Below, piece by piece: positions 44,641 to 46,896 of a stretch of 64,000 bases of DNA (its first letter is position 1; every line of letters starts with the position of its first letter). A program made the position numbers and the translations under genes. Below the pieces are notes generated by a model. It was not told the origin of the DNA and did no database searches. It saw only the letters and a program-made list of their open reading frames with translations. Origin of the DNA: an uncultured Planctomycetota bacterium (GTDB lineage Bacteria > Planctomycetota > Planctomycetia > Isosphaerales > Isosphaeraceae); the NCBI GenBank assembly GCA_963737655.1, contig CAVTTN010000002.1, positions 3,104,001-3,168,000 of the forward strand, given 5' to 3'.

Positions 44641-45276
44641 ATGAACGGGATGGGACGGGAGCCGCTCCTGTCGCTTCGCCTGGAATCTGCCCTGCGCCGG
44701 GCGGCCTCCTGGCACGCCGCCGAAGTTCGCAAAGGGTCTCAAGTCCCTTATTTCGCCCATCCGGTCGCCGTTGCGATGATCCTCGATCGCCTGGGGTTCG
44801 ACGAGGACGTGGTGATTGCCGGGCTGCTCCACGACGTGGTGGAAGACACTGACGCGACCCCCGAGGACGTCCTCCGCGAGTTCGGCCCCCGGGTCTCGCG
44901 ACTGGTGGCCGATCTTTCCGAGCGAAAAGTGGACGATCTAGGCGCGAAACGGCCGTGGATCGACCGGAAGACCGAGCATATCGACCATCTGGCCGGCGCC
45001 TCGGTCGAATCGCGGGCGATCGCCCTGGCGGACAAGCTCCACAACCTCACGAGCATCGAGTTCGACCTGGCCGAGGGGAGGCCGGTCTGGTCGCTGTTCA
45101 ACGCCAGCCGGGAGAGCGTCCTCTGGTACTATCGGACCAGCATCGAGCGTTATTCGTTCGAGACGCCGGAACTCGCCGAGCTGGCCGGGGCGTGCCGGGC
45201 GGTCCTGGATCGCGTGACGAGGGACACGGCGGCACCGGCCGGAAAAATCGTTTCGGAGGGGGTTCCGGCCCGTTGA
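44641..45276 (+). CDS. HD-domain protein, Mesh1-like small alarmone hydrolase family
   Basis: H...RKG..PY..HP, AGLLHDVVEDT, LADKLHNL. Confidence 0.8.
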   Translation: MNGMGREPLLSLRLESALRRAASWHAAEVRKGSQVPYFAHPVAVAMILDRLGFDEDVVIAGLLHDVVEDTDATPEDVLREFGPRVSRLVADLSERKVDDLGAKRPWIDRKTEHIDHLAGASVESRAIALADKLHNLTSIEFDLAEGRPVWSLFNASRESVLWYYRTSIERYSFETPELAELAGACRAVLDRVTRDTAAPAGKIVSEGVPAR

Positions 45277-45593
45277 TCCCCCGGACGAAATGCGTATAGT
45301 GTCTCTGTCGGCTGGGATTCACCCCCCAGCCGGCTCGGGTCGCGCAGAACGTAGCGCGACGGACTAAAGCCCGCTCCTGCTCGAGGCTGGACTCCCGCCG
45401 GACCGGGGAGGCCCGTTTTGCAAAGGGGGTGATCGCGTGTGTAGTGACAACCAGAGGCGGCTCGCCTAACGGCAGCCGACGGGTTGCCCGTCGGGCAGCC
45501 GCATCTTTTCGGCTTGTGAGATCGATCCGGCCGGGCCCGATGTTCTCGGGCCCGGTCGGGTCCCCAAGACCCTCGGGGACGGACGGAGAGACC

Positions 45594-45707
45594 ATGACCC
45601 CTCGGCCGGAAACCACGATCGCGGAGGCGTCCCTCGCCGCAGGCGGGTGGTATTGGCTGTTTACGGGGTCGGATTCCTCGGGTCCTGGGGCCGGATCGAG
45701 CGTCTAA
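45594..45707 (+). CDS. Putative aromatic-amino-acid attenuation leader peptide (37 aa)
   Basis: GGAGAG RBS + ATG; MTPRPETTIAEASLAAGGWYWLFTGSDSSGPGAGSSV; all aromatic residues clustered at 45648-45662. Confidence 0.8.
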   Translation: MTPRPETTIAEASLAAGGWYWLFTGSDSSGPGAGSSV

Positions 45708-45753
45708 TCGCCACGCTCTCCGAAAGCGAATCACCGAAGCCCCGGGACCCGAG
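45677..45753 (+). promoter_or_regulatory. Antiterminator helix of the attenuator
   Basis: CTCGGGTCCTGGGGC (45677-45691) pairs with GCCCCGGGACCCGAG (45739-45753): 15 bp with one G-U, sequestering the terminator 5' arm. Confidence 0.8.
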
Positions 45754-45772
45754 CGGTCCCGGGGCTTTTTTT
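45737..45772 (+). terminator. Intrinsic terminator (attenuator) upstream of DAHP synthase
   Basis: AAGCCCCGGGACC-CGAGC-GGTCCCGGGGCTT, with the T run extending to T7. Confidence 0.88.
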
Positions 45773-45883
45773 GTCGGTCGAGGCGAGGTCCGGGGGTCGG
45801 GCCTCGGCGGTTTCGCAGGTTCGGCGGGGGTCGCGGCGGGCCTCCTGAGGCTCGCCGACCCTCGCCCGGGAGGACGGGGCACC

Positions 45884-46896
45884 GTGATCGTCGTGATGAA
45901 GCCGGAGGCGACGGCCGACCAGATTGACGGGGTGGCCGCGCACATCACGGCCCTCGGGATGACGCCCCAGGTCATCCGAGGGACCGAAACCACCGTGATC
46001 GCCGCCATCGGCGAGGAGCGCGAGGGGCTGGCCGAGGCGTTGGAGCCGGGCGCGGGGGTCGAAAAGGTCCTGCCGATCCGCGCCCCTACAAGAGGGCGTC
46101 CTCGGAGCTCAAGGCCGAGAGGACCGTGGTCCGCGCCGGCAGCCTGGAGATCGGCGGGAAGAAGATCGGCGTGATCGCCGGCCCCTGCTCGGTCGAGAGC
46201 GAGGCCCAGATCGTCGCCCTCGCCCGGACGCTCAAGGCCAGGGGGGCCACGGGTTTGCGAGGAGGCGCGTTCAAGCCCCGGACCAGCCCCTATAGCTTCC
46301 AGGGCCACAAGGAAGACGGCCTCAAGATGCTGGCCGCCGCCCGCGAGGCCACGGGCCTGGCGATCGTCACTGAGGTCATGGCCCCGGAACACGTCCCGAT
46401 GGTCGCCCGATACGCCGACGTCCTCCAGATCGGCGCCCGCAACATGCAGAACTATCAACTCTTGCAGGCCGTCGGCGACAGCGGCAAGCCGGCCCTCCTG
46501 AAGCGGGGGATGAGCGCCACCGTTGATGAGTTCCTGCTCGCCGCGGAGTACATTCTCGATCGAAACAACCCGAACGTGATGCTTTGCGAGCGAGGCATCC
46601 GCACGTTCGAGGACCACACCCGGTTCACCCTGCCCCTGTCGGTCGTGCCCTACCTGCACGACAAGAGCCACTTGCCTGTGGTGGTCGATCCCTCGCACGG
46701 GACGGGCAAGGCGAAGCTCGTGGCGCCGATGGCGAAGGCGGCGGTGGCGTGCGGGGCGGACGGATTGATCATCGAGGTCCACGACGACCCCGCCCACGCC
46801 ATGAGCGACGGCTCCCAGACCATCACCCCGGCCGCCTTCGCCGCGCTGATGGCCGAGTGCCGACGGGTGGCCGAGGCGGTGGATCGGAGCCTCTAG
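45884..46896 (+). CDS. aroF: DAHP synthase type I-beta with N-terminal regulatory domain (frameshift near 46085)
   Basis: MIVVMK N-terminus, [54 protein letters not shown]. Confidence 0.93.

What the first reader, a model, noticed from the sequence alone, without database searches (positions are those of the whole stretch)
45594..45884. Complete leader-peptide attenuator sensing Trp, Tyr and Phe ahead of DAHP synthase
Seen: RBS plus a 37-codon ORF whose only aromatic codons are TGG-TAT-TGG-CTG-TTT (W-Y-W-L-F, 45648-45662); a 13-bp terminator stem whose T run extends to T7 (45737-45772); and a 15-bp antiterminator whose 5' strand begins at 45677, about one ribosome footprint beyond the last control codon, and pairs with the terminator 5' arm. 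Established: DAHP synthase is the entry step for all three aromatic amino acids, and trpL/pheL-type attenuation works this way. Inference: one leader integrates all three amino acids. I do not know of a characterised example in a planctomycete, and gene callers would miss this ORF.
Basis: partly seen in the sequence, partly recalled or inferred. Interest (0 to 1): 0.85.

Follow-up and report, generated by a model that had tools for sequence, protein, structure and literature searches.

The report
Three-aromatic attenuator behind ribosome-binding mini-RNA
A tiny gene rich in tryptophan, phenylalanine and tyrosine codons, joined to two competing RNA hairpins, sits before the first enzyme of aromatic amino-acid synthesis in many planctomycetes and likely lets a stalled ribosome switch that enzyme on: a textbook mechanism, here placed directly behind a separate conserved mini-RNA whose promoter it probably borrows.

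Summary
The 37-codon ORF, terminator and antiterminator precede a type I-beta DAHP synthase and are the best such arrangement in the genome. A homologous leader stands before 94 of 106 family orthologues and 24 of 35 in other families; both helices covary, and modelled antitermination survives a ribosome stalled at or before the Phe codon but collapses 3-6 codons later. Trp and a final Phe are invariant in this family; Tyr is enriched (89 of 93 leaders) but wanders. Sensing of all three is plausible, not shown: Corynebacterium aroR (Phe-Tyr-Phe before aroF) answers to Phe only. The last Phe codon is UUU in 115 of 115 leaders, mostly followed by A, which is unexplained. aroF carries a one-base deletion here, probably an assembly error. 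The scan found both the leader type and the mini-RNA before on other DNA. Known mechanism, new variant; no published planctomycete case found.

The parts
45273..45300 (+). Sigma-70-type promoter (TTGATC, 16 nt, TATAGT); the only promoter-like site found for the whole unit
   Evidence: 1 found against 0.1 in shuffles; TTGA...TA.A.T consensus at the same place in the alignment of 101 family loci
45307..45505 (+). Conserved structured RNA of about 200 nt (rreB-like mini-mRNA), a gene of its own in other planctomycetes
   Evidence: 102 of 106 family loci; 20 of 38 predicted pairs with changes on both sides; model R1 finds it in 18 of 149 other planctomycete genomes; no Rfam match near a gathering score
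45422..45434 (+). Extended Shine-Dalgarno sequence, 13 pairs with the 16S rRNA 3' tail (one G-U in this genome)
   Evidence: 16S tail read from the genome; duplex -21.6 kcal/mol; nearly invariant in alignment A1
45437..45469 (+). 10-codon mini-ORF, GTG start, (M)CSDNQRRLA
   Evidence: insertions only of whole codons (9 loci with 11 codons) and stop codon exchange TAA 85, TGA 9, TAG 7 among 101 loci
45524..45562 (+). Strong hairpin without a T run; position of the mini-RNA's terminator, here degenerate
   Evidence: -37 kcal/mol; median -33 in 85 family loci, 5 or more T in the 10 nt at the stem end in 28 of 85
45585..45588 (+). Ribosome-binding site of the leader ORF
   Evidence: sequence; anti-SD duplex -7.0
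45594..45707 (+). Leader peptide ORF, 37 codons
   Evidence: homologous ORF in 94 of 106 family loci
45648..45662 (+). Control codons Trp-Tyr-Trp-Leu-Phe; the last is the invariant UUU, followed by A
   Evidence: W in the 8 codons before the Phe in 93 of 93 leaders, two or more in 86; anchor codon TTT in all
45677..45691 (+). 5' strand of the antiterminator (pairs with 45739-45753); starts 17 nt after the first base of the Phe codon
   Evidence: covariation on A2, 10 of 16 pairs with double changes
45737..45772 (+). Intrinsic terminator: 13-bp stem, 5-nt loop, T7
   Evidence: 95.8% of cells paired in the main helix across 43 genera
45884..46896 (+). aroF, type I-beta DAHP synthase with N-terminal ferredoxin-like regulatory domain; one base missing in a C run near 46083-46086 in this assembly
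   Evidence: PRK08673 and TIGR01361 above cut-off; PF18152; alignment with 5 relatives

Best explanation
A conserved 37-codon leader with Trp, Tyr and Phe codons, an antiterminator and an intrinsic terminator lies before aroF and likely works as a ribosome-mediated transcription attenuator. Inferred mechanism: transcription probably starts at the promoter at 45273-45300, runs through the mini-RNA and in part past its weak terminator hairpin; a ribosome loads at 45594. With charged tRNA-Trp, -Phe and -Tyr in supply it reaches the stop codon, covers 45677-45691, the terminator folds and RNA ends near 45770. If it stalls at or before the UUU codon, 45677-45691 captures the terminator's 5' arm and loop before the 3' arm is made, and aroF is transcribed. 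Trp and Phe are the most likely signals in this family (my odds about 0.8 and 0.7), Tyr a weaker one (about 0.5). Shown: anatomy, conservation, covariation, codon enrichment. Modelled: the switch point. Inferred: translation, stalling, which amino acids count, and read-through from the mini-RNA promoter.
For: Leader in 94 of 106 family loci and 24 of 35 aroF orthologues of 11 other families. Stop codon exchanges (TGA 35, TAA 32, TAG 24 of 91) and lies 14-16 codons after the Phe in 87 of 93. Trp 0.33 per codon in the control window against 0.013 in long ORFs of the genome; Trp 120 vs 18, Tyr 22 vs 3.9 by shuffling in 44 genus representatives. Antiterminator: 39 cells with double changes vs 17.9 shuffled, 0 of 500 shuffles as high, all slid registers lower; own duplex beats cross-genus duplexes in 35 of 44. 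With the RNA ending at the terminator loop, the antiterminator has probability above 0.5 in 35-39 of 43 loci for a ribosome at codons -14 to 0, 17 of 43 at +3, 1 of 43 at +6. None of the other five candidates of the genome scan lies near the chorismate-binding, prephenate dehydratase or prephenate dehydrogenase genes. AroF has no Trp codon in 9,715 codons of 29 orthologues.
Against: No experiment, and no RNA cover of the leader in the two metatranscriptomes laid. At equilibrium the full-length RNA forms the terminator whatever the ribosome does (median 1.0 in 44 loci), so the switch must be kinetic, which I did not simulate. Without any ribosome the antiterminator still wins in 29 of 43 loci and in the window, and 76 of 91 starts are TTG or GTG, so basal read-through could be high. 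A pause-type hairpin round the UUU codon is found in 27 of 44 loci against 20.6 by shuffling and not in the window. Phe is not enriched in codons -8 to -1 (14 vs 12.7), and Asp is as enriched upstream as Tyr (36 vs 13.4), so part of the upstream signal may be shared ancestry or another constraint. The anchor Phe was partly chosen by the pattern, so its 93 of 93 is circular for the residue (not for TTT versus TTC). 12 of 106 family loci lack the leader. aroR answers to Phe but not Tyr.
Confidence: 0.8

Rival explanations
1. It is an attenuator for Trp alone (or Trp and Phe); the Tyr codons are kept by ancestry or RNA structure and do not affect read-through.
For: Trp dominates in this family (two or more in 86 of 93); Tyr lies between the first Trp and the Phe in only 23 of 93; no significant compensation between Tyr positions (p 0.06-0.10); published aroR ignores Tyr; single codons stall weakly (established knowledge, recalled).
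Against: Tyr in 89 of 93 leaders and 5-fold over shuffles in the control window; in other families Tyr (54) outnumbers Trp (36) in the clusters and all three occur in 23 of 24; modelled stalls at codons -14 and -9 antiterminate as well as at the Trp codons.
Confidence: 0.35
2. The invariant UUU-A is not a hungry-codon sensor but a nucleotide signal (RNA polymerase pause, hairpin loop, protein or nuclease site), so Phe is not sensed there.
For: TTT in 93 of 93 family anchors where 5% of the genome's Phe codons are TTT, and 22 of 22 in other families against a 37% background; the next codon begins with A in 21 of 22, with Ser written AGC/AGT in 7 of 8 cases. A hairpin closing over it covaries in part (4 of 5 pairs with double changes, 71% paired).
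Against: It is always in frame as a Phe codon; 64 of 78 Phe codons in the other families' clusters are TTT, as would follow from selection for the wobble-read codon; it lies one ribosome footprint (median 16 nt) before the antiterminator.
Confidence: 0.25
3. The leader acts through its nascent peptide or as a small protein (arrest peptide or trans-acting peptide) rather than through tRNA shortage.
For: Residues other than the aromatic ones recur: Asp at -9, Arg-Gly before the Trp run, Thr/Ser after the Phe.
Against: The residues after the Phe are explained by the antiterminator and covary with the terminator; the N-terminal half varies freely in sequence and length; other families share the aromatic cluster but not these residues; no Pfam or NCBIfam match.
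Confidence: 0.08
4. Chance ORF before a plain terminator that ends the mini-RNA transcript.
For: The terminator could simply be the 3' end of the upstream RNA, whose own hairpin lacks a T run in the window.
Against: ORF, control codons and antiterminator are conserved and covary, also in 23 loci of other families where the mini-RNA is not upstream.
Confidence: 0.02

Closest known systems
Corynebacterium glutamicum aroR-aroF attenuator (Mentz et al. 2013, PMC4046766, passages; Neshat et al. 2014, not read, as summarised in passages of PMC11802643)
   Same: Leader peptide with mixed aromatic codons ahead of a DAHP synthase gene; transcription attenuation.
   Different: aroR has Phe-Tyr-Phe and answers to Phe only; here Trp is the dominant codon and all three occur. 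Other phylum; sequence homology not tested.
E. coli trpL and pheL attenuators (Rfam Trp_leader RF00513; passages; spacing details recalled)
   Same: Short leader, control codons about one footprint before the antiterminator, mutually exclusive terminator.
   Different: They guard terminal branches with one amino acid each; no Rfam match here; a 1:2 pause / anti-antiterminator hairpin is not clearly present.
Multivalent ilv and thr attenuators (E. coli ilvGMEDA and thr recalled; Corynebacterium ilvB uORF in passages of PMC11109978)
   Same: One leader carries codons for all end products of a branched pathway.
   Different: Branched-chain or aspartate-family amino acids, not aromatic.
rreB / rreR small mRNAs of Alphaproteobacteria (Hahn et al., PMC5711450, abstract and passages), for the upstream RNA
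   Same: Small RNA with an over-long Shine-Dalgarno sequence, GTG start and a tiny ORF; function unknown.
   Different: 13 instead of 16-17 nt of complementarity, not reaching the start codon; several covarying helices; planctomycetes are not mentioned in that paper; here it heads the aroF leader.

Membership tests
Ribosome-mediated transcription attenuator (trpL/pheL type) | Short leader ORF with start, ribosome-binding site and conserved stop | tested here: met
   start with SD 16-29 codons before the Phe in 90 of 91 loci; stop codons exchange
Ribosome-mediated transcription attenuator (trpL/pheL type) | Control codons for the products of the downstream pathway, enriched and conserved | tested here: met
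   downstream gene is DAHP synthase
Ribosome-mediated transcription attenuator (trpL/pheL type) | Intrinsic terminator between leader and gene | tested here: met
Ribosome-mediated transcription attenuator (trpL/pheL type) | Mutually exclusive antiterminator, free at the control codons and covered further on | tested here: met
   covariation and in-silico ribosome scan; equilibrium fold of the full RNA favours the terminator
Ribosome-mediated transcription attenuator (trpL/pheL type) | Pause / anti-antiterminator (1:2) hairpin | tested here: inconclusive
   27 of 44 vs 20.6 shuffled, absent from the window's MFE; partial covariation
Ribosome-mediated transcription attenuator (trpL/pheL type) | Read-through depends on the charged tRNA in vivo | not testable with these tools
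   no experiment; no RNA cover of the leader
Rfam leader families (Trp_leader, Phe_leader, Bacteroid-trp) | Match to the covariance model | tested here: not met
   no hit near a gathering score, none of these families among 13 hits with E up to 10
aroR-type DAHP synthase leader | Lies before a DAHP synthase gene | tested here: met
aroR-type DAHP synthase leader | Phe-Tyr-Phe control motif without Trp | tested here: not met
   W-Y-W-L-F here; Trp in 93 of 93 family leaders
aroR-type DAHP synthase leader | Sequence homology with aroR | not tested
   the aroR sequence was not fetched
rreB/rreR mini-mRNA (upstream RNA) | 16-17 nt complementarity to the 16S 3' end reaching the start codon | tested here: not met
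   13 pairs, ending 2 nt before GTG
rreB/rreR mini-mRNA (upstream RNA) | GTG start and ORF of under 20 codons in a small RNA with its own promoter | tested here: met
rreB/rreR mini-mRNA (upstream RNA) | Binds 30S subunits, weakly translated | not testable with these tools
   no experiment
tmRNA, 6S, SRP RNA or RNase P (upstream RNA) | Match to the family, as the genome's copy | tested here: not met
   each is found elsewhere in the genome (the 6S candidate scores 42.3, under the 46.4 cut-off) and none at this place

The most novel reading that the evidence does not exclude
aroF in Isosphaeraceae is under a two-tier ribosome control: it has been wired behind a very abundant ribosome-binding mini-RNA, so that read-through of that RNA's weakened terminator (possibly set by ribosomes on its 10-codon ORF) feeds a single attenuator that counts Trp, Phe and Tyr together, with an invariant UUU-A as a class-wide timing element.
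Probability: 0.2. Interest if true: 0.72.

Novelty: new variant of a known kind. Interest (0 to 1): 0.45.

Why it matters
It extends leader-peptide attenuation to Planctomycetia, where my searches found no report, and adds Trp to the one published DAHP-synthase leader, giving a natural series of leaders (Trp-heavy in this family, evenly mixed in others) in which to ask which codons in a mixed leader are really sensed. The invariant UUU-A is a sharp, testable oddity. The link to the rreB-like RNA offers a read-out (aroF read-through) for an RNA class whose function is unknown. The mechanism itself is textbook.

Tried and rejected
Rfam scan of 45200-46000: nothing near a gathering score. tmRNA, 6S, SRP, RNase P for the upstream RNA: rejected. 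Rhodopirellula-1 motif: a single hairpin of other sequence in the supplement passages seen. Riboswitch for aroF as the role of the upstream RNA: unlikely, as it stands alone with its own terminator-like hairpin and unrelated neighbours in the other families' loci that I could see (10 of 19; the output was cut), and precedes aroF in only 1 of 39 loci outside the family. Occurrence outside Planctomycetota: of 30 pattern matches in genome contigs, the 12 that lack the motif's structure do not score with model R1; three that score carry loose titles (two 'Kuenenia', one 'bacterium'). Tyr compensation: first significant (p 3e-4), then traced to a boundary artefact (p 0.06-0.10). Equilibrium ribosome scan on the full RNA: uninformative, and the first 'arm sequestered' measures were unspecific; redone. 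RNA runs: only two with small shares; they do not cover the leader, so no 3' end could be tested. A planned rate of frameshifts in this assembly was not obtained (timed out). The supplement of PMC11109978 (motif lists from 50 genomes) could not be read and might list either element.

Full report
Observation. The downstream gene is a type I-beta DAHP synthase with the ferredoxin-like regulatory domain. It starts at GTG 45884 and lacks one base in a C run near 46083-46086 relative to 5 relatives; I take this for an assembly error but did not show it. Among 45,493 short ORFs of the genome only 6 combine an aromatic cluster with a following terminator, and this one ranks first.

Conservation in the family. 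I searched 120 genomes of the family and fetched 109 orthologous aroF loci including the window's; 3 were dropped because the contig ends before the gene start, leaving 106. Record titles of loci with the near-identical upstream RNA name the family as Isosphaeraceae. A profile from 46 seed loci, not including the window, finds the window's leader as the single hit below E 0.01 in the genome. 94 of 106 loci have the leader; 93 (44 genera) could be anchored on the final Phe, one (L014) could not; 12 lack it, among them all 7 of genus g50. Consensus: about 22 variable codons ending R-G-W-W-W-S-W-A, then F-T, then 14-16 codons to a stop (87 of 93). Starts, picked by best SD, are TTG 44, GTG 32, ATG 14, none 1 of 91; stops are TGA 35, TAA 32, TAG 24. 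The other two frames hold stops in 31 and 44 of 93 loci and far fewer Trp codons (the leader frame was chosen as open, so only the codon contrast counts).

Which amino acids. Trp occurs in the 8 codons before the Phe in 93 of 93 leaders, twice or more in 86; Tyr occurs there in 40 and anywhere in the leader in 89. With one locus per genus and shuffled bases as control: control window Trp 120 vs 18, Tyr 22 vs 3.9, Phe 14 vs 12.7; upstream part Phe 47 vs 20.9, Tyr 36 vs 13.1, but also Asp 36 vs 13.4; at least one Tyr in 41 of 44 vs 18.8 +/- 3.2. An apparent trade-off between Tyr positions disappeared when the boundary was set at the first Trp (p 0.06-0.10). Outside the family I took 39 aroF-like loci from a class search, set aside 4 as distant paralogues, and found a dense aromatic leader with a terminator in 24 of 35, in 11 families; all three amino acids occur in 23 of 24 clusters (Trp 36, Phe 78, Tyr 54 of 360 codons; e.g. 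YYWFYFSPP, YWYYFWFTF). The cut-off there was 4 aromatic codons in 9, so the density is selected; the mixture is not. Kin are not independent, so these controls overstate significance.

The UUU-A oddity. The anchor Phe codon is TTT in 93 of 93 family leaders, where TTT is 5% of Phe codons in long ORFs of the genome and 11 of 159 in aroF itself; other Phe codons of the same leaders are mixed. In other families the last F-[ST] exists in 22 of 24 leaders, is TTT in 22 of 22 (background 37%), and the next codon starts with A in 21 of 22. This is either selection for a wobble-read, starvation-sensitive codon in a fixed context or a nucleotide signal; I cannot separate them.

Structures. On an alignment of 43 genus representatives (one dropped for a mislocated terminator) the terminator helix is 95.8% paired with 6 of 10 pairs changing on both sides. 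The antiterminator is 75.6% paired, 10 of 16 pairs change on both sides, 39 such cells against 17.9 in shuffles, and all slid registers score lower; it reaches into the terminator loop, and two mismatches are conserved in most relatives but paired in the window. Its 5' strand starts a median 16 nt after the first base of the Phe codon. At equilibrium the complete RNA forms the terminator in nearly all relatives, so the choice must be made during transcription. With the RNA ending at the terminator loop, the antiterminator is favoured in 35-39 of 43 loci for a ribosome anywhere from codon -14 to the Phe, in 17 at +3, 5 at +4, 1 at +6, 10 at the stop; with no ribosome, in 29. So any stall up to the Phe codon, the upstream Tyr and Phe codons included, is placed to cause read-through. 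A hairpin over the UUU may serve as pause signal but is not established.

The RNA upstream. Between the promoter (45273-45300) and the leader lies a region folding at z -5, present in 102 of 106 loci, with 20 of 38 pairs changing on both sides, a 13-nt Shine-Dalgarno sequence, GTG and a 10-11-codon ORF whose insertions keep frame and whose stop exchanges. A covariance model finds it in 18 of 149 other planctomycete genomes of 9 families; in the 10 of 19 loci that I could see it stands alone, mostly with a terminator-like hairpin, beside unrelated genes, and it precedes aroF in 1 of 39 loci outside the family. It is not tmRNA, 6S, SRP or RNase P. In contigs of two soil metatranscriptomes the summed depth on it is 10^4 to 4 x 10^5 against 0-350 on aroF; contigs cannot rank expression and the runs were found by this stretch, so this is only a hint of abundance. 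In the family the spacer to the leader start is a median 123 nt, holds a -33 kcal/mol hairpin with 5 or more T at its end in 28 of 85 loci, and a -10-like hexamer in 19 of 85; in the window the hairpin has no T run and ends about 30 nt before the ATG. I infer that the leader is usually fed by read-through from the mini-RNA promoter; a promoter of another type in the spacer is not excluded.

Comparison with what is known. C. glutamicum has a Phe-Tyr-Phe leader before aroF (PMC4046766, passages), which responds to Phe but not Tyr (PMC11802643, passages; the primary paper was not read). Predicted attenuators before DAHP synthase operons are listed for several other bacteria (PMC1173090, passages). 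Multivalent leaders for branched pathways are textbook (recalled; PMC11109978, passages). Seven full-text searches and passage searches in PMC4833913, PMC12125101, PMC2864571 and PMC2965389 gave no planctomycete attenuator and no description of the upstream RNA; the library lacks most subscription papers and one relevant supplement was unreadable. Earlier notes of this scan describe the same leader type in other planctomycetes, cyanobacteria and archaea and the mini-RNA in planctomycetes; these are unchecked AI notes, not support.

Verdict. Real and conserved; works like a trpL/pheL attenuator (0.8); not a member of any Rfam leader family; a Trp-containing variant of the aroR idea. Sensing of all three amino acids about even odds. 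Interest 0.45.

Noticed in passing
window 45307-45505 (+): Phylum-wide structured mini-mRNA with a 13-nt Shine-Dalgarno sequence and 10-codon ORF, not in Rfam; the loop of its first hairpin is complementary to the SD (window, L005, L008) or to the start region (ACACAC against GTGTGT) in many loci, a possible pseudoknot that I did not count.
   Followed up: partly
window 46083-46086: One base missing in a C run of aroF relative to 5 relatives; splits the ORF in this assembly; probably a sequencing error.
   Followed up: partly
L005-L033, aroF coding sequences: No Trp codon in 9,715 codons of 29 AroF orthologues, and half the genome's Phe frequency; fits an enzyme that must be made under aromatic starvation.
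   Followed up: no
L089, L090, L094-L096, L098, L099 (genus g50); L019, L087, L101, L105: Leader lost: in g50 aroF follows the mini-RNA and a T-tailed hairpin directly, and the mini-ORF there ends Q-R-W; L019 and L105 keep the terminator hairpin without the aromatic ORF.
   Followed up: partly
window 44641-45276 (+): Stand-alone HD-domain protein related to the RelA/SpoT hydrolase domain (PF13328), ending at the mini-RNA promoter; linkage in relatives not checked.
   Followed up: no
G000:C2:3180065-3180808 and 7015832-7016572 (L002, L003): Two further DAHP synthase paralogues (55-56% identity); the leader profile finds nothing beside them.
   Followed up: partly
G000:C2:3414197-3414358 (-), L143: 6S RNA candidate just under the Rfam cut-off (42.3 bits against 46.4).
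   Followed up: no
L210:701-762: A Caulobacter record with a long SD, GTG and a 21-codon ORF, as described for rre genes; does not score with model R1.
   Followed up: no
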